From a virus: 64,000 nucleotides of DNA. Location: the IMG/VR virus record IMGVR_UViG_3300034520_000200, positions 1 through 64,000 of that record; one strand, written 5' to 3'. Below are positions 1 to 15,125 of this stretch, one piece after another; positions within the stretch are counted from its first letter, which is position 1; each line of letters opens with the position of its first letter. The notes under the pieces were generated by a model. That model was given only the letters and a program-made list of their open reading frames with translations, had not been told where the DNA came from and made no database searches. The position numbers were made by a program, and so were the translations under genes.

Positions 1-25
1 AAAATGATATTTAAGGGAGGACTTA

Positions 26-646: not shown

Positions 647-661
647 AAGGAGGAGATATAT

Positions 662-1012: not shown

Positions 1013-1015
1013 TTT

Positions 1016-3232
1016 ATGTTTTTAGATGCTGCAATTAAAATCTTAGAAAAAAGGTATTTAGAAAAGAATGATAAAGGAGAAATTATCGAAACTCCTGAAG
1101 AAAGATTTGAAAAAGTAGCAGATGAGATATCAAAAGCTGAAAAAAATGAAGAATTACAAAAAAAATGGAAAAATAGATTTTTAGAACATATGTTAGAATT
1201 AAATTTTCTGCCAAATTCACCTACTCTAATGAATGCTGGCAAAAATATTGATAGTCGTTATAAACAATATTGTGCTTGTACAGTAATTGATATAGATGAT
1301 AATATGGAAAGTATTGGAGAATCTGTAAAAGAGATAATGCTAATTCATAAAACCGGTGCTGGGACTGGAATGAATTATTCAAAATTAAGACCTAAGGGTT
1401 CTTTAGTTAGTACAACAAAGGGTAAATCATCTGGACCAATTGAATTTATGAAAATACACAACTCAGCTACTGAAGCTGTAAAACAAGGAGGCGTAAGAAG
1501 AGGAGCAAATATAGGTTTATTAGAAATATGGCATCCAGACATTATTGATTTTATAAATTTAAAATCGAAACCCGGTATAATGGAAAATTTCAATTTGTCA
1601 ATAGGTGTATGGGATGATTTTATACGTGCAATTTTAAATGGAAGTAAATATAGACTTCATTTCCCAGGTTTTCAAGAATTTGATAAAGAGGTTGATGCAA
1701 GAGAATTATTTAATTTGATTGTAAAAAGGGCTTGGGAAAGTGGAGAACCTGGACTTATATTTTTAGATACAATAAATAGACATAATCCTACACCTGAACT
1801 AGGTCCAATAAGATCAACAAATCCATGTGGTGAAGTTCCGCTCTATCCTTATGAAGCTTGTAATCTCGGATCTATAAATTTATCAAACATGATTGTTAAT
1901 AAAAAATGGAATTATAAAAAATTAGATCAAACAATTGAAGTTGGTGTAAGGTTTTTAGATAATATTGTAGATTTAACAAAGTTTCCAATTGATAAGTTTT
2001 ATACTTTACTTTTAGGAAATAGAAAAATCGGACTTGGTGTAATGGGTTGGGCAGATGCTTTACTAAAACTTGGAATTCCATATGATAGTGAACAAGCTTT
2101 AAATGAAGCTGAAAGTATTATGAAATATATTAATTCTACAGCATTAGATGTATCTAAAGCATTAGGTGAAGAGAAAGGCAATTTTCCAAATTTCGAGAAG
2201 TCAATTTATAAAGACAAACTTAAATATTTAAGAAATGCTTCAAGAACTGTTATTGCTCCTACAGGATCTATTTCAAGAATTGCAGGGGTTAATTATGGAA
2301 TAGAACCATTATACGAAATTGAAACAACTTCAAGAATTTTGAATGGAGAAGAAATAACGGTATTTCATCCAATTGTTAAACAAATATTAGAAGAACGAAA
2401 TTTGAAACATATTAAATCATCTAAAGATTTACCACAAGATCTTAAAGAAGTTATTAGAGTTGCTCATGAAATTTCTCCAGAATATCATGTTTTAATGCAA
2501 GCTGCATTTCAAAAATATACTGATAATGCTGTTTCTAAAACTGTTAATTTACCATATAATGCGACTGAACAAGATGTGTATAATATTTTTATGTTAGCTT
2601 GGGAACATGGATGCAAAGGAATAACAGTATATCGTGATGGATCAAGAAAAGATCAACCAGTTGTTAGTTCAAAAGAAACTATAACTATAAATAAAGAGTT
2701 TTCAAAAAATATAGTATATGAACATATGCCAGCGAAAATAATTCCAAAAGAAGTGGCTACAGATGCACCTTCAAGGACAATAAGAGTTAAAACTGGTTGT
2801 GGTAAATTATTTGTAGATTTAGTATTTGATGAAACTAATAAAGAATTAACTGAAGTATTTATAACTACTAATAAGAATGGAGGATGTAAATGTAATACTG
2901 AAGCTTTAGCAATGGCAGTATCTGCATTATTGAGATGTAATGTTGATCCGATGTATATTGTTAAGTTGTTAAAACAAGGAGATTCTTGTGTGTCTTTTAT
3001 GAGAGCAAAAGCAAATGATCCGCTTATGGAAGGACGATCTTGTCCAGATGCAATTGGAAGATTAATTGAAAAATATATTAAAAAAAATGAAACAATAGAA
3101 AAATCAAGGATTACTGAAATTGTAACTTATGATAGTGAATATGATATTACTTGTCCTGATTGTGGGAAAAAATTAAGAAATGCTGAAGGTTGTATTATCT
3201 GTCCGGCATGTGGATATAGTAGATGTAATTAA
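1016..3232 (+). CDS. nrdJ: class II (adenosylcobalamin-dependent) ribonucleotide reductase with C-terminal TSCPD/Zn-ribbon extension
   Basis: FLPNSPTLMNAG, TNPCGE, ACNLGSINL, IAPTGSIS, CKGITVYRDGS, SCPDAIG and terminal CxxC...CxxC; no beta-subunit gene adjacent. Confidence 0.92.
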   Translation: MFLDAAIKILEKRYLEKNDKGEIIETPEERFEKVADEISKAEKNEELQKKWKNRFLEHMLELNFLPNSPTLMNAGKNIDSRYKQYCACTVIDIDDNMESIGESVKEIMLIHKTGAGTGMNYSKLRPKGSLVSTTKGKSSGPIEFMKIHNSATEAVKQGGVRRGANIGLLEIWHPDIIDFINLKSKPGIMENFNLSIGVWDDFIRAILNGSKYRLHFPGFQEFDKEVDARELFNLIVKRAWESGEPGLIFLDTINRHNPTPELGPIRSTNPCGEVPLYPYEACNLGSINLSNMIVNKKWNYKKLDQTIEVGVRFLDNIVDLTKFPIDKFYTLLLGNRKIGLGVMGWADALLKLGIPYDSEQALNEAESIMKYINSTALDVSKALGEEKGNFPNFEKSIYKDKLKYLRNASRTVIAPTGSISRIAGVNYGIEPLYEIETTSRILNGEEITVFHPIVKQILEERNLKHIKSSKDLPQDLKEVIRVAHEISPEYHVLMQAAFQKYTDNAVSKTVNLPYNATEQDVYNIFMLAWEHGCKGITVYRDGSRKDQPVVSSKETITINKEFSKNIVYEHMPAKIIPKEVATDAPSRTIRVKTGCGKLFVDLVFDETNKELTEVFITTNKNGGCKCNTEALAMAVSALLRCNVDPMYIVKLLKQGDSCVSFMRAKANDPLMEGRSCPDAIGRLIEKYIKKNETIEKSRITEIVTYDSEYDITCPDCGKKLRNAEGCIICPACGYSRCN

Positions 3233-3277
3233 GGAGGAAACAAATTAAAAAAAGTTGAGAGGAGGTTAATTATAAAT

Positions 3278-3418
3278 ATGGTAAAAAAAGTTATTTATGA
3301 GTATGACAAAGATGGTAAGTTAGTTAAAGTAACAGAAATTGTTCATAAAAATTCAGATTGTAATAAAAAATGTCCTATAGTTGAAAATTATAAAAAAGGT
3401 CCGATGATACTAAAATAA
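3278..3418 (+). CDS. small hypothetical protein (46 aa)
   Basis: AGGAGG RBS, MVKKVIYEYDKDG...; below the ORF-track length cut-off. Confidence 0.6.
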   Translation: MVKKVIYEYDKDGKLVKVTEIVHKNSDCNKKCPIVENYKKGPMILK

Positions 3419-3447
3419 AATGGCCACCTTTTCAGGTGGCCTTATTT
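3414..3447. terminator. bidirectional intrinsic terminator
   Basis: GGCCACCT-tttc-AGGTGGCC hairpin with A/T-rich flanks between converging genes. Confidence 0.8.
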
Positions 3448-3449
3448 AT

Positions 3450-3653
3450 TTATTGATTTTTATATCTCTGCTCATAAGCTTCTATCATTTTTCTAACCAT
3501 ATTTCCTCCAACTCTTCCATTGTCTCTTGAAGAAAGTTGACCTTTATCAATTTGATCGTAGTTAGTAATTCCTAATTCTGAAGCTGTTTCAATTTTAAGT
3601 TTATCAAGCATTCGTCTAGCTTCAGGTATATTCAATTTATTTCTATTGGCCAT
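3450..3653 (-). CDS. alpha/beta-type small acid-soluble spore protein (SASP)
   Basis: LDKLKIETASELG and LSSRDNGRVGGNMVRKMIE are the two conserved alpha/beta SASP helices. Confidence 0.92.
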   Translation of the reverse strand: MANRNKLNIPEARRMLDKLKIETASELGITNYDQIDKGQLSSRDNGRVGGNMVRKMIEAYEQRYKNQ

Positions 3654-3696
3654 TTAACTTTCTCTCCTCTCTCTGTTAATTTTATTTTTGCAGTAT

Positions 3697-3726
3697 TATT
3701 ATAACCTTTTTGTTTCTACGTTATAC
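3697..3726 (-). promoter_or_regulatory. putative forespore sigma-F/sigma-G-type promoter of the SASP gene
   Basis: minus strand reads GTATA-15 nt-GGTTATAATA, matching the sigF-type GYWTA-N15-GGnnAnAnTW consensus. Confidence 0.55.
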
Positions 3727-3866
3727 ATGATAAAATATTTATCTTTTGTAATGAGTTTCCTATTTAAAATTATATTATTTTAAACTATATTAGTACTTTT
3801 ATAATAAAATTTATTTTATTTTTGAAATTTGTGTGATATAATTTAAAATAAAGGAGGTGAAAATAA

Positions 3867-4055
3867 TTGGATGAAAATGGAAAAGTGGTATTTGTAATAA
3901 TGGAAAAAGTGCAAGAAAAATTTATGTTAAAAGTTCGATGTGTTACTGCAAGTCCATCAGTAGTAAGAATGTTAAATAAGAATAATAATTACACAGTCAA
4001 AGTAGTTCCGTTTATTAATTATGAAGATATTAAAACTAAAAAGTATATGATTTAG
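3867..4055 (+). CDS. hypothetical protein
   Basis: GGAGGTG RBS, TTG start, TATAAT promoter upstream. Confidence 0.6.
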   Translation: MDENGKVVFVIMEKVQEKFMLKVRCVTASPSVVRMLNKNNNYTVKVVPFINYEDIKTKKYMI

Positions 4056-4070
4056 AAAGGTGCTGATAAA

Positions 4071-4220
4071 ATGGCTAGGACACAAGGAGCTTATAACAAA
4101 CCTATATTAGAAAGAATATTTGTCTTACTTCCAAAACTCAGTCAAAAAGAACTTCAAGCTGTTAAAAAGCAGATTGAAAATCTTATAGCTATTAATAATG
4201 AAATGAGAAAGGAAGGTTAA
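4071..4220 (+). CDS. small hypothetical protein (49 aa)
   Basis: AAAGGTG RBS, MARTQGAYNKP..., fills the operon gap. Confidence 0.6.
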   Translation: MARTQGAYNKPILERIFVLLPKLSQKELQAVKKQIENLIAINNEMRKEG

Positions 4221-4221
4221 A

Positions 4222-4488
4222 ATGACAAAGGAAAAATTTTGGGATAATGACCCTATTGTAGTAAATGAATTTGAAAAAGGCTCAAAGTTATGTAAAGCTT
4301 TATTAGGTAAAGTAAATAAAAAATACTGTGTAGCTTTACAAACATTCTTTACAGATAAAGATGGAAATGAAAGACCTGGAAAAGGATATTTTATTGTCGA
4401 CTCGAATAAACAATCAGTTATTGAACAGATTGATGATTCAATTCATTCTTTAAATGAATTGAAAAAAGCTCTGGTGAATTTAAAATGA
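4222..4488 (+). CDS. PC4/YdbC-like putative ssDNA-binding protein
   Basis: VALQTFFTDKDGNERPGKG resembles the PC4 'R.W.....P.KG' signature. Confidence 0.45.
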   Translation: MTKEKFWDNDPIVVNEFEKGSKLCKALLGKVNKKYCVALQTFFTDKDGNERPGKGYFIVDSNKQSVIEQIDDSIHSLNELKKALVNLK

Positions 4489-4829
4489 AAGACAGATCAA
4501 CACAAGCTTTAGCAATACAAAATCAATTTCGTGATATTTTTTCTTGTTTAAATAAAGTATCTAAAAGTATTGATGAATTAAACATGGAATATAATGGTAA
4601 AGATTTATACAGAGATGCAAATAGACTTTATAATACAATTAAAGACGAATATGATTTTGTAATGGATGATGATATCAAGAAACAACTTGAGCAATATGTA
4701 GAAAATGTAAAAATAGTTTTAACAAATATTGCAGTAATAAATAAATCAATAAAAAATATACAAGAAAATTTACAAGTTGCAAAAGAATATGTCAATAAAG
4801 CAGCACAGATAATTGATGTTATGATTTGA
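4485..4829 (+). CDS. coiled-coil hypothetical protein
   Basis: ATGA overlap with upstream gene; heptad-rich sequence. Confidence 0.7.
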   Translation: MKDRSTQALAIQNQFRDIFSCLNKVSKSIDELNMEYNGKDLYRDANRLYNTIKDEYDFVMDDDIKKQLEQYVENVKIVLTNIAVINKSIKNIQENLQVAKEYVNKAAQIIDVMI

Positions 4830-4840
4830 GGTGATTTATA

Positions 4841-5173
4841 TTGATAAAGAAAAAGATTGTAAAGAAAAAGAAAATAAAAATTGAAAAGCCAGTTGAAGTA
4901 CCGAAAGTTAAAGTAGAATTATCTCAAGAATTAACACGCCTAAATACTGCTAAAAAAGTAATACATTATGATACTAATGTACCTGAAGGTTGGAAAATAG
5001 TTTGTGAATGCAATCATGATAGTGGAGACCCTATAAAACTAGCTAAACAATGTATTAAAGAGTATCAACAAAAATATCCAAAAGATAATTTTAAAATTCA
5101 ACGTGCTCATCCATATTTAACATATATTCTTAAAGAAATTAAGAATAAGGGAAAATCAAATGGAAAGAAATGA
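4841..5173 (+). CDS. hypothetical protein, Lys-rich N-terminus
   Basis: GAGGTG RBS, operon context. Confidence 0.65.
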   Translation: MIKKKIVKKKKIKIEKPVEVPKVKVELSQELTRLNTAKKVIHYDTNVPEGWKIVCECNHDSGDPIKLAKQCIKEYQQKYPKDNFKIQRAHPYLTYILKEIKNKGKSNGKK

Positions 5174-5711
5174 ATATGAAGAATTATTCAAAAATGATAT
5201 TTTAGAAAAGAAAAGACTGTGTAGGAGTAAAAAGGTTGTAACTACAGGTAAAAAGAAAGTAACTGTTATGACTCCTGTTGATTATTTGAAAGGTCTTGAA
5301 AAGAAAAAATATATAAATTTAGAAAATGATGGAAAGGTGAGATATTATAAAATGTCAGACATTTTGATTTCATTAGATGAGTTTAAGAAATTAGATGATA
5401 ATAAAAAAGCAGAATATCTTAAAAGTTATTTACAGAAATATACAAGAAATGAGATTGCAAAGAAATGGAATGTAAAGAAAAGTTTCCTCAGTTATTATAT
5501 TAATAAATTAGGATTGAAAAATACTACAAATGAATCTCAAAATAATTCTTATAAAGTTGAATCATCAAAGAATTATAAAATAAATGTAAGTGGTGTATTT
5601 AAAGGATCTGAAGTAAAAGAATTTATTGCTTCATTGGATTTAGCAGTAAAAGAGAATAATACTTACTATATTAATATCGTTTTACAACAGAAATTTGAAG
5701 AATCACAATAA
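5160..5711 (+). CDS. putative HTH DNA-binding protein
   Basis: YTRNEIAKKWNVKKSFLSYYINKLGL helix-turn-helix pattern. Confidence 0.6.
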   Translation: MERNEYEELFKNDILEKKRLCRSKKVVTTGKKKVTVMTPVDYLKGLEKKKYINLENDGKVRYYKMSDILISLDEFKKLDDNKKAEYLKSYLQKYTRNEIAKKWNVKKSFLSYYINKLGLKNTTNESQNNSYKVESSKNYKINVSGVFKGSEVKEFIASLDLAVKENNTYYINIVLQQKFEESQ

Positions 5712-5944
5712 CTTTTAAATGTTTATTTATATTAATACATAAATAAAATAGTTAATAAAATAGACAGTGATAGACGTTTCAAAAAAATATCTAAATATTT
5801 TCACCTTAAATTAAATTTTTAGTGTCATATAGAGTGTTTTAGAAATATTAAATGTGGTTTAAAATTAAAATTGAACGTTATATTTAGGTACGTGTGGTAA
5901 TATATTATTATTGAATAAAATTTAATAGTTTGGAGGTGTAAACG

Positions 5945-6025
5945 ATGAGAAAATATAATAATATTCTCATCGATGTATTTTTGATATTTACATTCTCCAA
6001 CATATTATACAAATTAGTTTTTTGA
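5945..6025 (+). CDS. 26-aa hydrophobic peptide in its own transcription unit
   Basis: GGAGGTG RBS; MRKYNNILIDVFLIFTFSNILYKLVF; followed by AATAGACC/GGTCTATT-polyT terminator. Confidence 0.5.
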   Translation: MRKYNNILIDVFLIFTFSNILYKLVF

Positions 6026-6108
6026 AAATAGACCATTTAGGTCTATTTTTTTTATATAATCCTTATATTCATCCTTGTATTTACCTATATATAAGGTTGA
6101 ATATAATC

Positions 6109-6230
6109 AAAACTTTTCTTAACCTTTCTTTATAAATATATTGTTTGTTTTTAATAAAACAAACACCTTTCCGTTTTTACAAACGTTTTGGTGTAATGGC
6201 ATAGGTTGCGTAGGTTAAGAAAAAAGTTTT
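6109..6230 (+). ncRNA. candidate structured RNA element
   Basis: outer arms AAAACTTTTCTTAACCT / AGGTTAAGAAAAAAGTTTT enclose an internal TGTTTGTTT/AAACAAACA hairpin; TTTACC-16-TATAAT just upstream. Confidence 0.35.
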
Positions 6231-6306
6231 TATTGAATGTTATATAATTGATTTTGATAAAATATATTATACTGCAAAATAACAAAATCAAAAGGAGGTT
6301 TTTAAA

Positions 6307-6750
6307 ATGGTAAATGAAATTAGCATTAGTGAAAAGAATATTGAAAATGGAGGTGAGAAAGTATATAACGAAGTTCTTGAAAAAATATTAAAGTTAATTG
6401 ATAATTCAGAAGATATAAAATTTATAGAAGTTAAAAATAAATCTGGTTCAAGCATATTTGATTCAAATAAGATACGATTATTAAAAGTTGTAAAAACTAA
6501 AAGTGGATATAAAATTGAATTTAATGTTCATGTAAGTTCTGTTGAAGGAATGAAAATTTTAACTGATGAAGAAGCAAAAGAAAAACATATGGGAACTGCA
6601 AAATGGATCTATTCTGGTAATGATTTTAAAGTTATTGAAAAACTTGTTTTAGAAGCTATTGAAAATTATAAACATATGAATATTAGTTTTAAGAATAAGA
6701 AGAAAAATGATGAAAAAATAGAAGAAAATGAAATTAAATTAGTAACATAA
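6307..6750 (+). CDS. H(L/M)GT-family paralog 1 (DUF5655/YjbR-like fold, inferred)
   Basis: RLLKVVK..IEFNV..EAKEKHMGT shared with four other ORFs in the window. Confidence 0.75.
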   Translation: MVNEISISEKNIENGGEKVYNEVLEKILKLIDNSEDIKFIEVKNKSGSSIFDSNKIRLLKVVKTKSGYKIEFNVHVSSVEGMKILTDEEAKEKHMGTAKWIYSGNDFKVIEKLVLEAIENYKHMNISFKNKKKNDEKIEENEIKLVT

Positions 6751-6847
6751 CAGACAAATTTATAAAATTATTCAACAATATTATTTATTTTTGGAAATTC
6801 TGATGATATAATTATATTGTAAAAATAAAAATAAAGGAGGTTAAAAA

Positions 6848-7006
6848 ATGGAACAAGAAATGGAATGTGAAGAAAAATACGAAATATGTGAAAATTGCAA
6901 GTTATATGAAAAATTAACAGATGAAATAGGTTTATGTCATGGACCGTTTGAGACTGTATATTTTGATATGCCAATTTGTTCTGACTTTATTAAAAAGGAG
7001 GTTTAA
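6848..7006 (+). CDS. small Cys-rich protein (52 aa)
   Basis: conserved promoter and AAGGAGG upstream; CENC...C...C. Confidence 0.65.
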   Translation: MEQEMECEEKYEICENCKLYEKLTDEIGLCHGPFETVYFDMPICSDFIKKEV

Positions 7007-7008
7007 AT

Positions 7009-7413
7009 ATGGAACATGAAACAAGATATGGAATGGATGGAAGAATGAAGATTGTATCAGAAGATGATGTATTAATTGATGAAGAAACATTTCATAATTT
7101 ATTTGACAATGGTGTATGTGATACTTATATCGAACTTCCACGAATGATAAATTTAGTTGCAAAAGATATAGTAAAAATGGAAGATAATGATACAGATACA
7201 ATTTTATATCATATTGATGGAATAAGACAATTAATAAATACATGTAAAGATGCAATGAATTTATTGATACAAAAAGGAAAAGAATTAAATATTCCTGAAA
7301 AGCATATGAATCCTGATGTAATTGAGAATATTGATATACATTTAGATAAAATATCAGATATGAATATCAAAGATAATCATAACCGATATAAAAGATTTAA
7401 AGATATAAGTTAA
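7009..7413 (+). CDS. hypothetical protein
   Basis: AAGGAGG RBS, acidic composition. Confidence 0.75.
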   Translation: MEHETRYGMDGRMKIVSEDDVLIDEETFHNLFDNGVCDTYIELPRMINLVAKDIVKMEDNDTDTILYHIDGIRQLINTCKDAMNLLIQKGKELNIPEKHMNPDVIENIDIHLDKISDMNIKDNHNRYKRFKDIS

Positions 7414-7455
7414 AATTTACCATTTAATATTTGAAATAATTTTGGTATAATTATT

Positions 7456-7645
7456 ATTGCAGGTTAGGTGGTGACTCCTCTTCCTTAAGATCGTTGTATA
7501 AGTTTTATTTTTTTGAGATTTGTCTATATGACAAATCTGATTTTTGGTAGTTGTTGGTGGTTTTACATCTAATCTGCAATTATTTTCTGTCATTATGGTT
7601 TTCTCCTTTAAAGTGTGACTGATATAAAATGTCAGTCATTTTTTT
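7456..7645 (+). ncRNA. candidate trans-acting antisense sRNA
   Basis: TTTAAT-17-TATAAT promoter with TG extension (7423-7451); 15-bp outer stem 7456-7470/7566-7580 with two G-U pairs; internal AGATTTGTC/GACAAATCT hairpin; terminator TGACTGATAT/ATGTCAGTCA-polyT; no + strand RBS/ORF; loops match start regions of - arm genes. Confidence 0.7.
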
Positions 7646-7705
7646 ATATGTTTTATTTATTTTTAGCAAAAATGATGGTATTATAAAAATAAAAAGGAGG
7701 TTTTT

Positions 7706-7942
7706 ATGGAAGAATTTGAAAATATTAAAGGAAAAGTTACTGTATGTTTAAATTGCAAAGTTGTTAAAATCTCAAAAGATGGAAGTAGAATTTGTGACGA
7801 ATGTAATTATTGTAATACTATAGCATATTGGCCTACAAAGGAAAAATTCTTCGACTATATTGGAATGAATGGATTAAAGGATTTAGTTATAAAAGATGTT
7901 AAACTTATTGATGAAATATTATCTATATTTTCAGTTAAATGA
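7706..7942 (+). CDS. Zn-ribbon hypothetical protein
   Basis: CLNC...CDEC; RBS AAGGAGG. Confidence 0.7.
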   Translation: MEEFENIKGKVTVCLNCKVVKISKDGSRICDECNYCNTIAYWPTKEKFFDYIGMNGLKDLVIKDVKLIDEILSIFSVK

Positions 7943-7958
7943 AAGGAGAGATAAATAA

Positions 7959-8303
7959 ATGAAAAATGTTAAAAGATTAGAAAGTAATGTATGGGTTATG
8001 TCAACAATGATGTTGACACACGATCCTAATAATAGAAGAGGAGCTTATAGAGATTATGGAGAAATTGATAAGAAAGAATATGTCATTTTAACAGCTCCAG
8101 AATATGGATATAATAATTCAAAACAATATAAGGTAAGTCATTATATAGACGATATATTTCATACTCCAGATTTTATTATCAAAACTTATAAAGAATTATT
8201 TTTTGATACTGAAGAAGAAGCAGTTAAATATATAAAAGATAATTTTAATTTAGATTTAAGTATTGAAAGACTTAAAAATGAAGGAATTTATATTCAAGAT
8301 TAA
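7959..8303 (+). CDS. hypothetical protein, paralog of 18476-18823
   Basis: shared GA(Y/F)R, LTAP, L.F.TE..A..Y.K, DLSIER motifs. Confidence 0.75.
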   Translation: MKNVKRLESNVWVMSTMMLTHDPNNRRGAYRDYGEIDKKEYVILTAPEYGYNNSKQYKVSHYIDDIFHTPDFIIKTYKELFFDTEEEAVKYIKDNFNLDLSIERLKNEGIYIQD

Positions 8304-8377
8304 CAATCAATATTCATAAATTTTGTAACACAATTACTATATGTATCATATACTGAATATTAAGGAGGTGATTAAAA

Positions 8378-8707
8378 ATGAGAAAACGTTCTACAGTTAA
8401 TACTCCTTTAATAGATGATAAAATTGCACAAGATTATATTGATGAAGCTTGTGAAGAATTGAGTGTTGGAATTCCCATGTCAACGATTGCTGGCAGAGAT
8501 AAGTTTATTTTAGCTTCAGTTTATTCATTATTTGCTATTGTAACAATGTTAGATAATATGCAGCAAGATTTACATAAAATTACAGTTAAATTATGTGGTG
8601 AGACTGAAGAAGATAAACATAAAAAAATTATGAAAAAACTTATTGATGGTAAGAAGTTGTCTGAAGAAGAACAGAAATTTATTGACGATATAGAAAAAGA
8701 TTTATAA
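8378..8707 (+). CDS. hypothetical protein
   Basis: AAGGAGGTG RBS. Confidence 0.7.
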   Translation: MRKRSTVNTPLIDDKIAQDYIDEACEELSVGIPMSTIAGRDKFILASVYSLFAIVTMLDNMQQDLHKITVKLCGETEEDKHKKIMKKLIDGKKLSEEEQKFIDDIEKDL

Positions 8708-8829
8708 CAGATTTTAAAATCTGTTATTTTTACACAATCTTTATAAACATTTTTAACATATTTATTTATTTTTTGATATTTTGATGATATAATTATATTG
8801 TAAAAATAAAAATAAAGGAGGAAATTATA

Positions 8830-9000
8830 ATGACAGAAAGAAATTTAGAAGAATTATTGAGTATCATGGAAGAAAAACGTAAAATAAGTGTCAATTATAA
8901 TGAATTTCAAACATTATCAGAATTTTTAATACTTCATAACCAAAGTTTTACAGTTAAAGTTTCTGAAAATACTGATATTATTGATGTAATTTTAAATTAG
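8830..9000 (+). CDS. small hypothetical protein (56 aa)
   Basis: conserved promoter at 8746-8795 and AAGGAGG; MTERNLEE... Confidence 0.65.
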   Translation: MTERNLEELLSIMEEKRKISVNYNEFQTLSEFLILHNQSFTVKVSENTDIIDVILN

Positions 9001-9013
9001 GAGGTATATAAAT

Positions 9014-9340
9014 ATGATAGTTAAAGTAAAACATATATTTCATTTTGAACATTATAAAGAAATAGAAGTTCCAGATGATTTAATTGTAGATATAGAAGAT
9101 TTTGAACAAGATGCTGCAGTACAAGATGCTATTGATAAAGCTCGTGAAGAAGCTGAAGAGGAATTTGCAGAATTTAGACGAGAAAATGGTATTGATTGGA
9201 CAAAAGTTGAAGTGAATTATGAATTTGACAATGATAAATATGATTATTGCGACCATTGTGATAAGTTATATCCAAAAGATGAATTAACAATCGATGATAT
9301 AGGACTTTATATTTGTAAGAATTGTAAATCTCAAGAGTGA
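9014..9340 (+). CDS. acidic Zn-finger hypothetical protein
   Basis: CDHC...CKNC; very acidic. Confidence 0.7.
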   Translation: MIVKVKHIFHFEHYKEIEVPDDLIVDIEDFEQDAAVQDAIDKAREEAEEEFAEFRRENGIDWTKVEVNYEFDNDKYDYCDHCDKLYPKDELTIDDIGLYICKNCKSQE

Positions 9341-9451
9341 GGTGATAAAATGGATATCGACAAAGAACTTAAAAAACTTAAAATCAAAAAATCTGATTTT
9401 TTAAAATGGTTTTTGATCGTAAAACTTTATATAACAAGAGGTGAATTTTAA

Positions 9452-10147
9452 ATGTCAGATGATTGCTTAATACAGCAACTTATGGATGAAGTTTATAATA
9501 AATGGAGAAAAAATGAATGTAAAGGTATGAGTAGACTTGAAGTAATTTCTAAATTCTTTACTCTAAGACACAAAGCAGCTGTTCAACTTGGAAATATGAA
9601 TTACCAAGTTGAGAATGGTGGTTGGTCTCAATGGGATATGAATGGATATTCAGAAGATATTGATGATTTGATTGAATATTGTAAAAAAGGAATTGCAATG
9701 AAAATTAAACATTTTGATAAACTACTTGAAATACTAAAAGATGTTAAAATGATTTTAGAAAATATGAAAATACACGAAGAAAATAGAGAATCTTTGGATG
9801 ACGACGAATATTATGATGGTGAAGAAGAATATGAAAGTTTGTCTAGATTAGATGATAAATATTATGAAATAGATCAGACTGAATTAATTGAATCGTTTGA
9901 CGAATTCTTGAAAAGGTTCGATGAAAAGACTGATGTTTCTGGTATAAAAGTTGAATCTACAATAAAACCTAAAGTAAAATTGATCGGCGAAAATGGGAAT
10001 GTCTTTAATATTATAGGTAAGGTGTCAAAAGCTCTTAAACAAGCTGGTCAAAAGAATAAAGCAGGAGAATTTGAAGAAAAAGCATTAAATGCTAAAAGCT
10101 ATATGGAAGTTCTTTGTTTAGTTGCTGAATATGTCGATATTTTATAA
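9452..10147 (+). CDS. DMP19/DUF4375-like protein with an extra C-terminal domain
   Basis: QVENGGWSQW..N motif, acidic; C-terminal KVKLIGENGNVFNIIG module. Confidence 0.55.
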   Translation: MSDDCLIQQLMDEVYNKWRKNECKGMSRLEVISKFFTLRHKAAVQLGNMNYQVENGGWSQWDMNGYSEDIDDLIEYCKKGIAMKIKHFDKLLEILKDVKMILENMKIHEENRESLDDDEYYDGEEEYESLSRLDDKYYEIDQTELIESFDEFLKRFDEKTDVSGIKVESTIKPKVKLIGENGNVFNIIGKVSKALKQAGQKNKAGEFEEKALNAKSYMEVLCLVAEYVDIL

Positions 10148-10186
10148 TAAAAATAAGTTAAAATTTTAGATGAGGAGGTTATAAGA

Positions 10187-10639
10187 ATGGTTGATGTTAC
10201 TATAAGATATCCAGATGCAAATGTAGATATTTCATGTGTTACAATAGATGATCGAGAGGATATTGAATCTGTATATTTCGTATTGAATAATAAAGACAAA
10301 CAATTTGTAGTATTAAAACGTTTTAACAAGAAGTATAAAGACTCTAACGAAGGAGCTTATCGAATAGAATTAGAAGAAGAAGAAATAATAATTAATAAGA
10401 CTTATATATTTCAAATAAGTAAATCTTGTTATTCTAAAAATGATTTGATAAAAGATATTGAAGAACATAACAAGAAATATGACAGATTTGTTGAGCTTCT
10501 TAAAAATCTAGAAGTCCAAGAACTTAAGACTTTGGCTGAAAAAGAACATTTTACTTATGATGTAGCTTTAGAAAAAATGGGATATACAAATGATATTCTT
10601 AAAGAATACGTTGAACTTTGGGAATATTTTGTATATTAA
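10187..10639 (+). CDS. hypothetical protein
   Basis: GAGGAGG RBS. Confidence 0.7.
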   Translation: MVDVTIRYPDANVDISCVTIDDREDIESVYFVLNNKDKQFVVLKRFNKKYKDSNEGAYRIELEEEEIIINKTYIFQISKSCYSKNDLIKDIEEHNKKYDRFVELLKNLEVQELKTLAEKEHFTYDVALEKMGYTNDILKEYVELWEYFVY

Positions 10640-10654
10640 AGGAGGGATAATGAA

Positions 10655-10960
10655 ATGTTTGACTTGCATAAAGTTTTAGATACATTAGCTAATGATTTTT
10701 TTAATAATGATAATGAAGCTCTAACTGCAGTTAGTTTTGATGGAGGAAAAAGGTTCTCAAAATGTTCAATTAGAGTTGAAGATAGACATATTACAATTAG
10801 AATATTCGAAGATTCACATGATGATAGTAATATAATTATGATATTAATCGACAAAATCGATTCAGTAACAATACACAGTATAGGTCGTTTAGAATTAAAT
10901 TTAACAGATAATATTTTTGGAAATGAAAAAATTGTCTTATATAAAATGGAGTCGATATAG
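10655..10960 (+). CDS. hypothetical protein
   Basis: AGGAGG RBS. Confidence 0.7.
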   Translation: MFDLHKVLDTLANDFFNNDNEALTAVSFDGGKRFSKCSIRVEDRHITIRIFEDSHDDSNIIMILIDKIDSVTIHSIGRLELNLTDNIFGNEKIVLYKMESI

Positions 10961-11089
10961 TATTATTACTACCCATCCAATATCTATAAATATACATTCT
11001 CTATATTAACAGTATCATACATACAAAATAAACTAGCTTGATTTAAAGTTCCTTGATCGTATCCTGTAGTACTATCTTTAATTAGAATA

Positions 11090-11118
11090 AAATAAGCCTG
11101 TAAGGGCTTATTTTTTTT
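11090..11118 (+). terminator. intrinsic terminator
   Basis: AAATAAGCC-tgtaag-GGCTTATTT followed by T run. Confidence 0.75.
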
Positions 11119-11376
11119 GTTTAAGTAAATTCTATATTGTGCTTCTATTTTAAATTCTAAGCCTATTAAATATGGTATAAATATTTTTATATTAAAATTT
11201 AATTTAAGAAGCTATAGAGACGTATTAGAAAATCTAAAATTTATCTTAAATTCTATATATTTATTATTTTTATTAAAGAAAAATTGTTTTTTAGAAGTTA
11301 TTTATTTTTTGATATTTTGATGTTATAATATAATTGATAAAATAAATGGATAATTCAATGAAATGGAGGATAATAA

Positions 11377-12003
11377 ATGAGAGAAGTAACAAAAGTGTAT
11401 AAAATCTATAAGTTCGATGAACTTGAACCAAAAGCTAAAGAAAAAGCAATAGATGAAGTAAGAAATATGAAATATGATTTTATTGATGAAACATTATCGA
11501 ATGTACTTAGAGAAGAATTAGAAAAATATGGATATCCAACTAATGATTTAAGATATAGTCTAAATAATCAGCAAGGAGATGGAGTAGCATTTTATGGAAA
11601 TTTATATGAAGAAAATATTTTAAAGATATTAGAAAGGTTGAAACTTGAAGAACTTTATAAAAAATATAAATTGTTTCAAGTTTTCAATGTAACAAGATTT
11701 TTTACTTTTGATATTGAGAAAAACAGAGATTTTTACCGATATGACCATTTTAATACAATGATTGTTAGACTACGTATACATTATTCAATAATTTATGACG
11801 GTAATAATATTTATAAGAGAATAACTAACATATTTGAACAGATACAAAATGTGATTCAAGACGATGTAAAATATGTAAGTAAAAAACTTGAAAGTTTAGG
11901 ATATAAAATAATTGATGATGAATTAAGTGATGAAAGAATAATACAAGATATAAAAGATAATGATTATGAATTTTATTCAAATGGATTGATATATAAAGAA
12001 TAA
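11377..12003 (+). CDS. conserved phage-type hypothetical protein
   Basis: YKFDEL..KAKEKA...QGDGVAF...YEFYSNG pattern; own conserved promoter. Confidence 0.7.
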   Translation: MREVTKVYKIYKFDELEPKAKEKAIDEVRNMKYDFIDETLSNVLREELEKYGYPTNDLRYSLNNQQGDGVAFYGNLYEENILKILERLKLEELYKKYKLFQVFNVTRFFTFDIEKNRDFYRYDHFNTMIVRLRIHYSIIYDGNNIYKRITNIFEQIQNVIQDDVKYVSKKLESLGYKIIDDELSDERIIQDIKDNDYEFYSNGLIYKE

Positions 12004-12253
12004 TATTATTCTTTTTTTTACTATTTTTAAGAGTACTTAACTATAAATTATTTTATTTTTTACGTTTTTTAGTAATTTCTTTTTAACACTCTAACGGGCT
12101 TCTATTTAATTCTTTTTGTTATTTTAATATAATTATATATATAAATAAAAATGATTACTTTTAGATTAAAATAGAAGCTCATAAAAAGAATTAAATAATA
12201 AAAAAAAGAAAGCCTTATAGGCTTAATCTTTAATAAAATATTCTTTATTCATT

Positions 12254-12676
12254 TTATACTATTCCTTCATCTATACATTCTTTAAGAAATTCTTTAAGAC
12301 GTGGAAATGATTTTTCATATTTATTGGATTCTCTTTCTTCTTTCCATATTTCTTCTAGTCCAAGAAGTTTAAATATTTCTTTTTCCCATTCTTTAGGCAT
12401 TTTTACTAGTTGTTCGCCAGAAATATAACATAAATGAAGATAATTACTCCATATTTCTTTAATTTTCGGATTTATTTCTATATATTCATATATTGATAAT
12501 TCACATATTGTATGATCTGTCAAAACAACTTTAAATGATGTATAACTTGTTGGTTCAATTCCAGTCCAATGATATGGATAAAGTTCTTCAACTAATGTTG
12601 GATCAGCTTCTATCATTTTTTGTTTTACATGTTCTGGTAGTTTCTCAATATCTTTAGCATCAAATCTGAAAGCCAT
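12254..12676 (-). CDS. hypothetical protein (last gene of the - arm)
   Basis: GGGAGG RBS; followed by AAGCC/GGCTT hairpin with an A run on + (~12200-12225). Confidence 0.7.
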   Translation of the reverse strand: MAFRFDAKDIEKLPEHVKQKMIEADPTLVEELYPYHWTGIEPTSYTSFKVVLTDHTICELSIYEYIEINPKIKEIWSNYLHLCYISGEQLVKMPKEWEKEIFKLLGLEEIWKEERESNKYEKSFPRLKEFLKECIDEGIV

Positions 12677-12716
12677 TTTAAGCCTCCCGAATTTTTAGTG
12701 AGAGGAATAGGAAAGA

Positions 12717-13232
12717 TTAAAAATTAGTCTTCCCTATTCCAGTTATTACTGCATCATAGTCTTTGCTATATACTATACAATCAATTTTATTAGTTTCTGC
12801 TTCGTTTTTCAAAACTTCAATAATATCTTCGACTGTTTTTACATTGTTTAATGGGTTTTCAAGATTATCACGAATTTGATTTGCATTTACAACTGTTAAT
12901 CCGTCATTTTCATCATAAACAACTACTAAATATCTTTCTAACTCTGTATCTTCCAAAATTGCAATTGGAATTTCGTCTTTGTAAAAATTAATTTTATCAA
13001 TCTTCTTTGATGGTCTCATTCTAAAATCTCTAACTGCATCATTTAATGTTGCAAAGTAATGTCCGAGTATTGGTTCTCCATTTCTGCTTATTATCCAAGT
13101 TACATACGGAGTGAGAGAATTGTTTGGTTTTAAAGCTATGATATATGTTATGTCATCGACTATTTTTGAATCAATCACAATTGCTCCATTATTTAAAGTA
13201 ACACCTCTGTCAATAATTTCATTTTCTGCCAT
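12717..13232 (-). CDS. hypothetical protein
   Basis: AAGGAGG RBS; PYVTW...GHYF motif; boxA-like motif in leader. Confidence 0.75.
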   Translation of the reverse strand: MAENEIIDRGVTLNNGAIVIDSKIVDDITYIIALKPNNSLTPYVTWIISRNGEPILGHYFATLNDAVRDFRMRPSKKIDKINFYKDEIPIAILEDTELERYLVVVYDENDGLTVVNANQIRDNLENPLNNVKTVEDIIEVLKNEAETNKIDCIVYSKDYDAVITGIGKTNF

Positions 13233-13298
13233 TATTGAATCCTCCTTTTATTTTATTTTCAAGGTTCAATAAATCGAATAATACAAAAATGGAGGGGT

Positions 13299-14324: not shown

Positions 14325-14963
14325 TTATTGATTAACTTCTACTGTCTGTATATTTTCTGTTTGATTTTCTTCTTTACGATCTTCTACTTTCACAGGTAAC
14401 GTTTCTACAGGAGCTTGGGCTGCAATTTCAATTTTGCCCTTCTTCTTTTTATATTCATTAAGCCGATCTAAATCTTCTTGAGTCATCTTTCTTGTTACAA
14501 CTTCTGAAGCAGCAACTGAAGCTTTTTTATTCTTCTTATTGAGTTTGGATTTTCCAGACTTTTGGATAGTCTTAGAAGTTGAAGCTTCTTTCTTTTCTTC
14601 ACCCTTCCGATTTACCATATCTTGGAAATTCTTCCAAGCCTCATGAAGAGCTTCTTTTACTTCTGCTTCGTCATTGCTCTTCAGAATGTGGACTAAAGTT
14701 CCAAGGTGTTTCTTAGACGCTTCTACTTTCGAGAATGTTTGAAGATTTGGACCAAGTTTTTTAATCGTTGTATCAGATAATTTCACGTTCAATTCTAAAT
14801 ATACTCCTTCTTTTCCTGTCTTAACTAATTTGCAAAACCTATCACTTCCGCTGAAGAAACTATTCCCTGTGGTATTTTCTTTCATTGAAAGTCTGTCTTT
14901 CACTAAATTCTTGATTTCCTTCAAAGTCTTATCAAACCCAAACTTTTCTTTATTTTCTGCCAT
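14325..14963 (-). CDS. H(L/M)GT-family paralog 3 with charged C-terminal tail
   Basis: RFCKLVK..YLELNV..EASKKHLGT; close paralog of 21097-21570. Confidence 0.8.
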   Translation of the reverse strand: MAENKEKFGFDKTLKEIKNLVKDRLSMKENTTGNSFFSGSDRFCKLVKTGKEGVYLELNVKLSDTTIKKLGPNLQTFSKVEASKKHLGTLVHILKSNDEAEVKEALHEAWKNFQDMVNRKGEEKKEASTSKTIQKSGKSKLNKKNKKASVAASEVVTRKMTQEDLDRLNEYKKKKGKIEIAAQAPVETLPVKVEDRKEENQTENIQTVEVNQ

Positions 14964-15125
14964 TTTGGCTCCTCCTTTTTAAATTCAAATTTCTTTTCGG
15001 AGCAGCCACTTAAATTCTTTATTAAATTTTCAAGGTCCATTTTATTTTCAAATATATTATAAAATAAAGTTATCTGAAAGTAAATATATTCTACTGACTT
15101 TTTCAAACTTTTTTTTAAACTTATT

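What the first reader, a model, noticed from the sequence alone, without database searches (positions are those of the whole stretch)
7423..7645. Candidate multi-target antisense sRNA aimed at the start regions of the phage's own - arm genes
Seen: a + strand unit with its own promoter (TTTAAT-17-TATAAT), a 15-bp closing stem, an internal hairpin and a U-tailed terminator. All three stem mismatches are G-U on + and would be A-C on -. Its unpaired segments copy the + strand of distant - strand genes, so they are antisense to those mRNAs. (a) 7584-7614 matches 20654-20684 at 28/31 nt, covering RBS, ATG and first codons; two of the three differences are G-U compatible. (b) 7583-7608 matches 21560-21585 at 24/26, with weaker matches at the starts of 14963, 13232, 22202, 18823 and the + gene at 8830. 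(c) 7548-7564 TAGTTGTTGGTGGTTTT is identical over 17 nt to 24440-24456, codons ~4-9 of gene 24465. (d) 7507-7521 equals 22861-22875 over 15 nt (AT-rich, weaker evidence). (e) TGACTCCTC matches the RBS of gene 19566. Inference: one modular guide-like RNA with separate loops that shuts off translation of a set of early genes, including three H(L/M)GT paralogs. Part of match (a)/(b) is generic anti-Shine-Dalgarno sequence.
Basis: partly seen in the sequence, partly recalled or inferred. Interest (0 to 1): 0.92.

Follow-up and report, generated by a model that had tools for sequence, protein, structure and literature searches.

The report
Phage small RNA with anti-ribosome-site tail
An uncultured soil phage appears to encode a ~187-base structured RNA whose exposed tail mirrors the ribosome-loading site of several of its own genes, so it may switch them off, but an overlapping 58-codon reading frame on the opposite strand is still a live alternative.

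Summary
The + strand unit is credible. It has an extended -10 promoter (7423-7451) that groups with the phage's own early promoters. The ~187-nt RNA folds at -50.8 kcal/mol, z -5.1. A 35-nt tail is unpaired, and a strong terminator follows.

The tail is the reverse complement of a translation start region. It pairs with five phage gene starts (8830, 20663, 21570, 14963, 13232) at -33 to -40 kcal/mol. None of 150 shuffled controls that kept the anti-SD and anti-AUG letters reached this.

The same letters also read as a ribosome site plus ATG for a 58-codon - strand frame. That frame stays open more than chance allows (31 of 5000 shuffles). However, it has non-coding composition, no fold, and no promoter or terminator of its own.

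The extra "guide modules" (c)-(e) are at the genome's natural background. I found no relative and no RNA data, so strand and function are untested. The scan has not noted this on other DNA.

Verdict: probable phage antisense sRNA. The multi-target reading is partly supported.

The parts
7423..7451 (+). P1 promoter: TTTAAT, 17-nt spacer, TGgTATAAT (extended -10). Predicted start near G7459.
   Evidence: Of the 33 TGNTATAAT sites in the genome, its flanks rank 9th in likeness to the four + arm early promoters, inside the group of gene-linked promoters. On a family PWM it scores only 9.2 bits against 26-44 for the others.
7459..7645 (+). Predicted ~187-nt non-coding RNA.
   Evidence: MFE -48.2 (7459-7645) and -50.8 kcal/mol (7455-7648), z -5.10, 0 of 200 shuffles. 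The + frames carry 9, 4 and 6 stops over 7400-7660. No Rfam family matches.
7456..7470 (+). 5' arm of the 15-bp closing stem. It pairs with 7566-7580.
   Evidence: 15 consecutive pairs, 2 of them G.U (7463.7573 and 7468.7568).
7566..7580 (+). 3' arm of the closing stem.
7472..7486 (+). Internal CU-rich tract (UGACUCCUCUUCCUU), mostly sequestered in a weak G.U-rich helix with 7546-7562.
7516..7538 (+). Internal 9-bp hairpin followed by GAUUUUUGG.
7578..7614 (+). Single-stranded tail (seed). It is the reverse complement of SD + spacer + AUG + 4-5 codons.
   Evidence: Unpaired probability is mostly 0.87-1.0 over 7578-7610, apart from a weak 2-bp hairpin. Five best hybrids are -40.4 to -33.2 kcal/mol, and 0 of 150 controls reach them.
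7615..7645 (+). Intrinsic terminator: 11-bp stem, 3-nt loop, T run.
   Evidence: 2 terminator-like sites found where 0.1 were expected. It is one of the few + strand terminators in 1-13000.
7417..7593 (-). 58-codon open frame with AAAGGAGA-N7-ATG. Rival product, or a by-product of the anti-TIR tail.
   Evidence: Open in 31 of 5000 shuffles. Codon score -0.16, below 0 of 661 real chunks. G at codon position 1 is 7%. pLDDT 46.7. Only itself among 5.8 billion proteins.
7656..7684 (+). P2, the promoter of the next + genes (TTTATT-17-TGgTATTAT), directly behind the terminator.
   Evidence: PWM 26.6 bits, with an SD-start 10 nt downstream. Like promoters occur at 22924-22968 and 17056-17105.
8812..8841 (+). 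Predicted target: start region of gene 8830.
   Evidence: Hybrid -37.1 kcal/mol; -33.5 with opening costs.
20656..20685 (-). Predicted target: start region of gene 20663 (42 aa).
   Evidence: 28 of 31. Hybrid -40.4; -28.0 with opening costs.
21559..21590 (-). Predicted target: start region of gene 21570 (H(L/M)GT paralogue).
   Evidence: 24 of 26. Hybrid -38.0; -24.3 with opening costs. A population variant matches the tail 30 of 30.
14949..14978 (-). Weaker predicted target: start region of gene 14963.
   Evidence: Hybrid -34.7; -21.9 with opening costs.
13218..13248 (-). Weaker predicted target: start region of gene 13232.
   Evidence: Hybrid -33.2; -22.4 with opening costs.
24440..24456 (-). 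17-nt complement in codons 4-9 of gene 24465. Doubtful target.
   Evidence: 17 of 17. -19.4 kcal/mol with opening costs. This level of match is at the natural background.

Best explanation
The intergenic stretch 7414-7705 encodes a + strand small RNA of about 187 nt.

Transcription. It starts near G7459 from an extended -10 promoter of the phage's early type (7423-7451). It stops at the intrinsic terminator 7615-7645. Read-through from the upstream operon 6848-7413, which has no terminator of its own, would end at the same place.

Structure. The first two thirds fold into a domain closed by a 12-15-bp stem that buries the 5' end. The last ~35 nt before the terminator (7578-7614) stay single-stranded. 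They are the reverse complement of a translation start region: SD, spacer, AUG and the first codons.

Proposed function. The RNA most likely pairs over the ribosome-binding site and start codon of phage mRNAs that share this start region, blocking initiation and/or exposing the duplex to RNase III. The predicted targets are 8830, 20663 and 21570, and more weakly 13232 and 14963.

Shown here, all in silico: the motifs, the fold, the accessibility, the complementarity and its controls.

Inferred: that the RNA is made, that it is the + strand that matters, and that pairing represses translation.

The 58-codon - strand frame is read as a by-product of a tail copied from the 5' end of an H(L/M)GT-type gene. 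That frame's openness remains unexplained.
For: - Promoter. TGgTATAAT is preceded by TTTAAT at 17 nt. Flank likeness to the four + arm promoters ranks 9 of 33 TGNTATAAT sites. The eight above it are all gene-linked early promoters. The ten lowest-ranked sites (means 7.8-11.2 of 33) include 7 of the 11 other sites that lack a downstream start.
- Terminator. 11-bp stem plus T run; 2 terminator-like sites where 0.1 +/- 0.4 were expected.
- No + ORF. There are 9, 4 and 6 stops in the + frames.
- Fold. -50.8 kcal/mol, z -5.10, 0 of 200 shuffles. The - strand gives -29.8. 8 of 58 pairs are G.U and would be C.A on the - strand.
- Open tail.
- Pairing. The five best hybrids are -40.4, -38.0, -37.4, -34.7 and -33.2 kcal/mol. 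Controls that keep CTCCTT and CAT average -25.1 to -21.4, and 0 of 150 reach any rank. Among 116 natural anti-TIR sequences it ranks 1st for the 2nd to 5th best target and 2nd for the best.
- Wobble direction. As the antisense partner it beats the reverse direction by 5.7-12.3 kcal/mol for all five targets; the mean of -8.9 ranks 3 of 116. Transition differences are 22 wobble-compatible against 6 not, or 14 against 4 by column, p 0.03.
- Against the - ORF as a gene. Codon score -0.16 is below all 661 chunks of real genes and equal to stop-free shuffles (190 of 300 at or above it). G at codon position 1 is 7% against a mean of 30% (0 of 661 chunks as low). There is no Gly, Ala or Phe. AlphaFold2 gives pLDDT 46.7 with no secondary structure, while the 56-aa orphan 8830 gives 91.9 under the same conditions. 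No - strand promoter better than 9 of 12 and no - strand terminator is nearby.
Against: - The - strand frame from ATG 7593 stays open for 57 codons in only 31 of 5000 dinucleotide shuffles. The other two - frames carry 5 and 12 stops over 7400-7660.
- The tail is a full member of a family of real start regions. Of 11 sites, the other 10 head ORFs of 42-212 codons.
- Real members are as alike to each other as to the candidate (28 of 34). Likeness alone therefore needs no antisense role.
- P1 is a peripheral promoter: 9.2 bits against 26-44 on the family PWM. TGNTATAAT occurs 33 times against 17.5 +/- 4.4 in shuffles, so about half of such sites may be chance.
- The wobble bias is modest. Two other TIRs show as much asymmetry, and 21570 shows 11 against 5 columns. 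The bias may simply reflect the G/U-rich composition of the + strand.
- Both strands fold better than their shuffles (z -5.1 and -4.1).
- P1 is of the same type as the promoters of the proposed targets, so no delay that would explain a shut-off is evident.
- No homologue exists to test covariation.
Confidence: 0.45

Rival explanations
1. A real small - strand gene (58 aa, basic, probably disordered) sits between two + strand units. Convergent + strand transcription from P1 and from the upstream operon then covers it completely, including its ribosome site. That would make it a cis-antisense pair of the P22 sar/ant or type I toxin-antitoxin style. Matches (a)/(b) exist only because the gene uses the phage's common start region.
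For: - SD AAAGGAGA, 7-nt spacer, ATG, and a frame open for 57 further codons (31 of 5000 shuffles). The other - frames have 5 and 12 stops.
- All 10 other sites of the same start-region motif head ORFs.
- A gene caller has called this frame; the protein is on record once.
- Some likely real small genes of this phage also have low codon scores, for example the 95-aa ORF at 24936 with -0.08.
Against: - Codon score is below 0 of 661 real chunks and equal to stop-free shuffles. G at codon position 1 is 7%.
- There is no Gly, Ala or Phe.
- pLDDT is 46.7 against 91.9 for a same-size orphan control.
- No family in Pfam or PHROGs, and no homologue.
- No - strand promoter of the phage type within reach. 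The best hit is 9 of 12 at 7767-7739, in a region where 13 promoter-like sites were found against 16.2 expected.
- No - strand terminator.
- A 15-bp helix would begin 13 nt after the start codon.
- It is not hydrophobic, so it is not a classical type I toxin.
Confidence: 0.25
2. A + strand RNA is made, but it does not act on the phage's own start regions. It could be a structured 3' UTR and terminator module of the 6848-7413 operon. It could be an RNA that binds a protein, or one that acts on host mRNAs or ribosome sites through its generic CUCCUU tracts.
For: - The upstream operon has no other terminator before 7615.
- Two CU-rich anti-SD-like tracts lie at 7472-7486 and 7600-7608.
- Many start regions pair with the tail at about -20 kcal/mol through the SD alone.
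- The host is unknown, so host targets could not be examined.
Against: - Complementarity to five phage start regions extends 26-31 nt, well beyond the SD; 0 of 150 anti-SD-preserving controls reach it.
- The unit has its own promoter just 5' of the stem.
Confidence: 0.2
3. It is a relic without function. A fragment of the 5' end of an H(L/M)GT-type gene was inserted in reverse orientation by recombination between the similar start regions on the two arms, next to a chance inverted repeat, or as a single-copy MITE-like insert with 15-bp terminal inverted repeats flanked by TATT.
For: - Start regions on opposite arms are near-identical inverted repeats, for example 8830 vs 21570 at 26 of 34.
- One population variant has the 21570 site identical to the tail over 30 nt, which suggests gene conversion.
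- TATT lies on both sides of the inverted repeat.
- The early region is rich in repeats.
Against: - The promoter, the fold (z -5.1), the open tail and the strong terminator are arranged in the exact order of an sRNA gene.
- A decaying gene fragment should accumulate stops, and this frame has none.
- No second copy of the stem arms exists in the 86-kb genome.
- No full-length copy was found in 399 Clostridia-class genomes.
Confidence: 0.1

Closest known systems
P22 sar antisense RNA (passages of the review PMC12197685 read with 'find')
   Same: It is a small phage RNA that base-pairs over the translation start of a phage mRNA and blocks initiation. If the - strand frame here is expressed, the geometry is the same: the RNA is made from the opposite strand across the ribosome site.
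   Different: sar is 68-69 nt and acts on one gene (ant) at its own locus. Here the RNA is about 187 nt, has a large stem-closed 5' domain, and its best predicted partners lie 1.2-14 kb away. There is no sequence or Rfam relation.
P1/P7 c4 antisense RNA (same review)
   Same: It is a phage RNA that acts in trans on complementary sites around a ribosome-binding site of the phage's own mRNA. Its specificity differs between related phages (heteroimmunity).
   Different: c4 is 77 nt, from enterobacterial phages, and controls one operon. From recall, it is cut from the same transcript as its target. Here there is a separate promoter, up to five targets on both arms, and a Clostridia-type phage. No Rfam match was found.
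Lambda OOP RNA (same review)
   Same: It is a short promoter-to-terminator antisense RNA inside a phage early region, acting with RNase III.
   Different: OOP is cis-encoded against the 3' end of cII, not against a ribosome site, and it has one target.
CU/C-rich anti-Shine-Dalgarno sRNAs of Firmicutes such as RoxS/RsaE, and type I antitoxin RNAs of Bacillus prophages (recalled; no call made)
   Same: They have an exposed pyrimidine-rich segment that pairs with SD sequences of several mRNAs, an intrinsic terminator, and no need for a long seed.
   Different: Those use short C-rich motifs in loops. Here the complement is 26-31 nt and includes the start codon and first codons. Type I toxins are hydrophobic, and this frame is not.

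Membership tests
Trans-acting base-pairing sRNA (promoter-to-terminator gene) | Own promoter on the RNA strand | tested here: met
   In silico only. TTTAAT-17-TGgTATAAT. Groups with true early promoters by flank likeness, rank 9 of 33. PWM score is low, 9.2 bits.
Trans-acting base-pairing sRNA (promoter-to-terminator gene) | Intrinsic terminator at the 3' end | tested here: met
   11-bp stem, 3-nt loop, T run at 7615-7645.
Trans-acting base-pairing sRNA (promoter-to-terminator gene) | No translated ORF on the RNA strand | tested here: met
   There are 9, 4 and 6 stops in the + frames. The only + ORF of 30 aa or more starts inside the terminator hairpin, with no SD.
Trans-acting base-pairing sRNA (promoter-to-terminator gene) | Accessible seed complementary to target mRNAs beyond chance | tested here: met
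   However, the same complementarity follows if the locus is itself a start region of the family.
Trans-acting base-pairing sRNA (promoter-to-terminator gene) | RNA detected; targets respond | not testable with these tools
   No usable expression data; the host is uncultured.
Trans-acting base-pairing sRNA (promoter-to-terminator gene) | Conservation with covariation in relatives | tested here: inconclusive
   No relative was found in any collection. The four DNA runs of one study are identical over the locus.
Cis-antisense pair with a protein gene (sar/ant type, type I toxin-antitoxin type) | Opposite-strand ORF whose ribosome site is covered by the RNA | tested here: met
   ORF 7593-7417 with SD at 7600-7607, inside the RNA's tail.
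Cis-antisense pair with a protein gene (sar/ant type, type I toxin-antitoxin type) | The ORF is a genuine coding gene | tested here: inconclusive
   For: openness, 31 of 5000. Against: codon score, G at codon position 1, amino-acid content, pLDDT, and no homologue.
Cis-antisense pair with a protein gene (sar/ant type, type I toxin-antitoxin type) | Promoter for the ORF's strand | tested here: not met
   Nothing better than 9 of 12 without TG, in a region at or below chance density. No TGNTATAAT on the - strand near it.
Cis-antisense pair with a protein gene (sar/ant type, type I toxin-antitoxin type) | Small hydrophobic (membrane) toxin, for type I systems | tested here: not met
   The sequence is Thr/Asn/Lys-rich, with no Phe, Ala or Gly and no hydrophobic stretch.
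Any described RNA family (Rfam 15, including phage antisense RNAs held there) | Covariance-model match at the gathering score | tested here: not met
   0 matches at gathering over the window. Within 7414-7705 the best is 18.6 bits against a threshold of 49.9.
MITE-like insert | Several copies with terminal inverted repeats and target-site duplication | tested here: not met
   Single copy in the 86-kb genome. No full-length copy in 399 genomes. Only a 4-bp TATT on both sides.

The most novel reading that the evidence does not exclude
The RNA is a wobble-rich 'consensus antisense': one G/U-rich tail tuned to pair with a whole family of start regions. The family includes those of co-circulating relatives. 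In one sample a more abundant variant carries a 21570-type start region that is a perfect 30-nt complement of the tail. The RNA would then silence a rival phage's early H(L/M)GT gene as well as its own paralogues. That would be RNA-based heteroimmunity between soil Clostridia phages, acting on several genes at once.
Probability: 0.1. Interest if true: 0.75.

Novelty: new variant of a known kind. Interest (0 to 1): 0.45.

Why it matters
Phage antisense RNAs that block a ribosome site are classic (sar, c4, OOP). The known ones act on one gene and come from enterobacterial phages. A promoter-to-terminator sRNA in an uncultured Clostridia-type phage whose single tail covers SD and AUG of five phage genes on both arms would be different. 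It would show that phages use one RNA to set the translation of a paralogous gene set.

It would also give a simple, testable rule: a tail that is the consensus of the start regions, with U and G at the variable positions.

The locus is also a useful annotation caution. A perfect ribosome site followed by a 58-codon frame may be the mirror image of an sRNA seed.

Tried and rejected
Relatives for covariation: none found.
- blastn of 7000-8000 against 50,697 phage records gave no match.
- Flanking proteins 7009-7410 and 7706-7939, and the terminase, in viral contigs gave no relative.
- A 22-nt stem pattern and a degenerate tail pattern in viral contigs gave 0.
- The tail pattern and protein 7009-7410 in metagenome contigs gave 0.
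- The alignment of the two closest H(L/M)GT paralogues in genome contigs and viral contigs gave 0.
- The RNA against 399 scored genomes of the class of the best SASP hit gave only 28-48-nt AT-rich pieces. Three genomes reached by handle gave one 28-nt piece.
- The terminase has only matches under 60% identity in isolate phages.

Expression: no RNA holder was listed by the look-up of sequencing runs. This says nothing either way.

The four DNA runs of one study showed no other letters over the locus, so there is no natural variation to use.

Family searches:
- Rfam at E up to 10 over 6500-8500 and at gathering over the window: nothing.
- tRNA/tmRNA: none.
- Pfam and PHROGs on the 58-aa frame and on neighbours and targets: nothing usable.
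- Foldseek of the 8830 model against the PDB: no match at E of 0.001 or better (collected).

Whole-RNA duplex energies without a length limit over-extend and were dropped in favour of the tail and 30-nt windows (replaced).

Ideas rejected:
- Attenuator or leader of the downstream genes: a full promoter P2 follows the terminator.
- MITE: single copy.
- Type I toxin: not hydrophobic.
- Retron, pRNA or Y-RNA-like RNAs: no RT gene nearby and no Rfam hit. These resemblances were only recalled, not tested further.

The second literature search gave nothing specific. I saw only its listing. I ran no search for a multi-target phage anti-TIR RNA beyond, so I do not claim it is absent from print. Supplementary files were not consulted.
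Full report
CONTEXT

The window is the first 64 kb of an 86,065-bp IMG/VR virus record, estimated about 54% complete. It is very AT-rich, with 23-34% G+C. Rightward early genes occupy 1-12 kb, leftward genes 12.2-24.5 kb, and rightward structural genes follow.

An alpha/beta-type SASP gene (3450-3653, - strand) has its best matches, at 65-70% identity, in Eubacteriaceae and other Clostridia genomes. The host is therefore probably a spore-forming member of the Clostridia. The DNA occurs in four runs of one soil/subsurface study.

THE OBSERVATION

- 28 of 31 for 7584-7614 vs 20654-20684.
- 24 of 26 for 7583-7608 vs 21560-21585.
- 17 of 17 for 7548-7564 vs 24440-24456.
- 15 of 15 for 7507-7521 vs 22861-22875.
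- The 9-mer TGACTCCTC occurs at 7472 and 19569.

The promoter is TTTAAT (7423-7428), a 17-nt spacer, then TATAAT (7446-7451), with TG at 7443-7444.

The + strand of 7455-7648 folds at -50.8 kcal/mol, against -32.05 +/- 3.68 for 200 dinucleotide shuffles (z -5.10, none as good). The fold has:
- a 15-bp closing stem (7456-7470/7566-7580) holding 2 G.U pairs;
- a weak G.U-rich helix;
- a 9-bp apical hairpin (7516-7538);
- an open tail;
- an 11-bp terminator hairpin with a T run.

One correction is needed. The closing stem has two G.U pairs and no mismatch. The whole structure has 8 G.U among 58 pairs.

IS A + STRAND RNA LIKELY?

Promoter.
- TGNTATAAT occurs 33 times in the genome, against 17.5 +/- 4.4 in composition-matched shuffles. 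The motif alone is therefore worth about even odds.
- 21 of the 33 sites have an SD-start within 150 nt. P1 is one of the 12 that do not.
- When the 33 positions flanking the motif are compared with the four + arm early promoters, P1 ranks 9th (mean 17.8 of 33).
- The eight sites above it are all gene-linked early promoters. The ten lowest-ranked sites (means 7.8-11.2) include 7 of the 11 other sites that lack a downstream start.
- P1 also shares the spacer element TTTGAAAT at the same distance from the -10 as the promoters ending at 3842 and 6812.
- On a position matrix built from 11 family promoters, mostly of the - arm, P1 scores only 9.2 bits. Training members score 30-44 and five independent members 26-29. 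I take it as a probable but peripheral member.

Terminator.
- It is one of the few + strand terminators in 1-13000; the others are at 3422, 6024 and 11089.
- It is followed at once by a full family promoter, P2 (7656-7684, 26.6 bits), for gene 7706.
- The upstream operon 6848-7413 has no terminator before 7615. Its transcripts should also end there.

No SD-led + ORF lies between P1 and the terminator. The order is promoter, stem-closed domain, open tail, terminator, next promoter. That is the anatomy of an sRNA gene.

THE TAIL

Positions 7578-7612 are unpaired, with probability mostly 0.87-1.0. Read on the other strand they are ACTTTAAAGGAGAAAACCATAATGACAGAAAAT: an SD, a 7-nt spacer, ATG and codons.

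As an antisense, the 37-nt tail forms hybrids with five start regions out of 115 tested:

| Target gene | Hybrid energy (kcal/mol) |
|---|---|
| 20663 | -40.4 |
| 21570 | -38.0 |
| 8830 | -37.4 |
| 14963 | -34.7 |
| 13232 | -33.2 |

Controls and further measures:
- 150 controls kept CTCCTT and CAT in place and shuffled the rest. They gave means of -25.1 to -21.4, and none reached the observed value at any of the five ranks.
- With opening energies for both partners, the order is 8830 (-33.5), 20663 (-28.0), 21570 (-24.3), 13232 (-22.4) and 14963 (-21.9). A continuum of SD-only partners follows from about -20.
- Among the reverse complements of all 116 start regions, the candidate ranks 2nd for its best partner and 1st for its 2nd to 5th best.

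THE AMBIGUITY

The same letters are a start region in their own right.
- The motif AAGGAG[GA]-N5-8-ATG[AG]C[AT]GAAA, one substitution allowed, has 11 sites. The other 10 all head ORFs of 42-212 codons.
- Real members resemble each other as much as the candidate. 21570 vs 20663 is 28 of 34, the same as the candidate vs either.
- The frame that starts at 7593 stays open for 57 more codons. Only 31 of 5000 dinucleotide shuffles do so.
- The two other - frames carry 5 and 12 stops over 7400-7660.

This is real evidence for a - strand gene, and I cannot explain it away.

AGAINST A CODING GENE

- The frame's codon log-odds score is -0.16. This is below all 661 59-codon chunks of the 45 long genes (mean 0.39, sd 0.14) and below all 45 of their N-terminal chunks.
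- The score cannot be told apart from stop-free shuffles of its own letters (mean -0.12; 190 of 300 at or above it).
- G at codon position 1 is 7%, against a mean of 30% and a minimum of 17%. None of the 661 chunks is as low.
- It has no Gly, Ala or Phe.
- It has no homologue among 5.8 billion proteins other than itself and no family.
- AlphaFold2 from the single sequence gives pLDDT 46.7 with no secondary structure. A fair control, the 56-aa orphan 8830 that uses the same start region, gives 91.9.
- The - strand has no phage-type promoter upstream. The best hit is 9 of 12 at 7767-7739, in a region with 13 promoter-like sites against 16.2 expected.
- The - strand has no terminator downstream.
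- A 15-bp helix would start 13 nt after the ATG.

Caveat: a few likely real small genes also score low, for example -0.08 for the 95-aa ORF at 24936.

STRAND-SPECIFIC HINTS

- The 8 G.U pairs make the + fold 21 kcal/mol better than the - fold. Relative to their own shuffles, though, the strands differ less (z -5.1 vs -4.1).
- For all five partners, the candidate pairs better as the antisense RNA than the partner's complement pairs with the candidate, by 5.7-12.3 kcal/mol. The mean of -8.9 ranks 3 of 116.
- Where candidate and partners differ by a transition, 22 differences keep a U.G or G.U pair and 6 do not. By column this is 14 against 4, p 0.03. The other five members give 10:7, 11:5, 7:7, 10:9 and 7:6.

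This is what a multi-target antisense would look like. It is also what any G/U-rich strand would give, so the weight is modest.

THE OTHER 'MODULES'

- Against dinucleotide shuffles, the four matches of 14 nt or more, all same-strand and all in the - arm, are striking: 0 of 2000 shuffles.
- Against natural 194-nt windows of this genome they are not. 137 of 886 windows have at least four such matches, and 84 of 886 have a 17-mer.
- For the 5' domain alone, 50 of 1409 windows, and 37 of 427 in the early region, have a 17-mer plus a 15-mer.
- (c) and (d) lie in reading frames different from the candidate frame, so they are not protein paralogy. They fall in codons 4-9 and about 7-12 of their genes.
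- (c) would give -19.4 kcal/mol after opening costs.

I treat (c) as possible, (d) as weak and (e) as chance. The 'modular guide' picture is not supported.

A POPULATION DETAIL

In run X2, a 10,886-nt contig has depth 20.8, against 9.83 for the contig that carries the locus. It matches 7583-7612 with 0 other letters and 7584-7614 with 3. The two places are 906 nt apart, the spacing of 21560 and 20654 in the window. In the window itself, the 21560 site differs from the tail at 3 of 30 positions.

A co-occurring variant therefore has a 21570-type start region identical to the tail, GGAGA included. This shows that the tail's sequence is a working start region somewhere. It points to copying or gene conversion between the two loci. 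It fits either reading, and it feeds the boldest one: an RNA aimed at a rival's gene. I could not fetch that contig.

COMPARISON WITH KNOWN SYSTEMS

From passages of the review PMC12197685:
- P22 sar (68-69 nt) pairs with ant mRNA and blocks initiation.
- P1/P7 c4 (77 nt) binds complementary regions around the ribosome site of ant mRNA and underlies heteroimmunity.
- Lambda OOP (77 nt) is antisense to cII and works with RNase III.

The present unit would work like these. It differs in being larger, in having a stem-closed 5' domain, in coming from a Clostridia-type phage, and in having up to five predicted targets on both arms. It is not a member of any Rfam family. The scan's earlier notes hold nothing like it on other DNA.

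VERDICT

| Reading | Odds |
|---|---|
| A + strand RNA is made | about 0.8 |
| It acts by pairing its tail with phage start regions | about 0.45 |
| The - strand frame is translated (not exclusive) | about 0.3 |

The finding is real and worth an experiment, but it is a variant of a known kind. Interest: 0.45.

Noticed in passing
window 5712-6306: A 600-nt gap without a long ORF. It holds a 26-codon hydrophobic ORF (ATG 5946, SD TTGGAGGTG) that runs into a + strand terminator at 6024-6050, then a promoter-like site at 6080-6107. This could be a small membrane peptide or a second small transcription unit.
   Followed up: no
run X2, contig of 10,886 nt, equivalent to window 20654-21589: A more abundant co-occurring variant has the start region of the 21570-type gene identical to 7583-7612 over 30 nt, where the window differs at 3 positions. 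This suggests gene conversion or a related phage in the same sample.
   Followed up: partly
window 8830-9000: The 56-aa orphan protein folds from its single sequence at pLDDT 91.9 as a small alpha/beta domain (H-E-H-E-E). No PDB match at E of 0.001 or better; the top weak rows are Smr, R3H and KH-like nucleic-acid-binding folds.
   Followed up: partly
window 3842, 6812, 7684, 8793, 11329 (+) and 15056, 15539, 17072, 18046, 18866, 19668, 20248, 21686, 22247, 22935, 23537 (-), given as -10 ends: A strongly conserved early promoter family with an A/T-rich upstream block and TGNTATAAT. The + arm and - arm versions differ (TTTATTTTT... vs TTTATTTAC...). 18 of the 20 best matrix hits have an SD-start within 150 nt.
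   Followed up: partly
window 3450-3653 (-): An intact alpha/beta-type SASP gene set against its neighbours, next to a two-way terminator (3422-3441). Best matches are 65-70% identical, in Eubacteriaceae and other Clostridia genomes, which points to a spore-forming host.
   Followed up: partly
window 6307-6750 (+), 13299-13706, 14325-14963, 21097-21588, 24100-24465 (-): The five paralogues align with 12 invariant columns, including H..GT. They have no Pfam or PHROGs family and no relative in viral contigs or genome contigs. Two of them (21570, 14963) are among the predicted targets.
   Followed up: partly
window 1016-3232 (+): A ribonucleotide reductase large chain with a C-terminal TSCPD domain (Pfam E 4e-123).
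   Followed up: no
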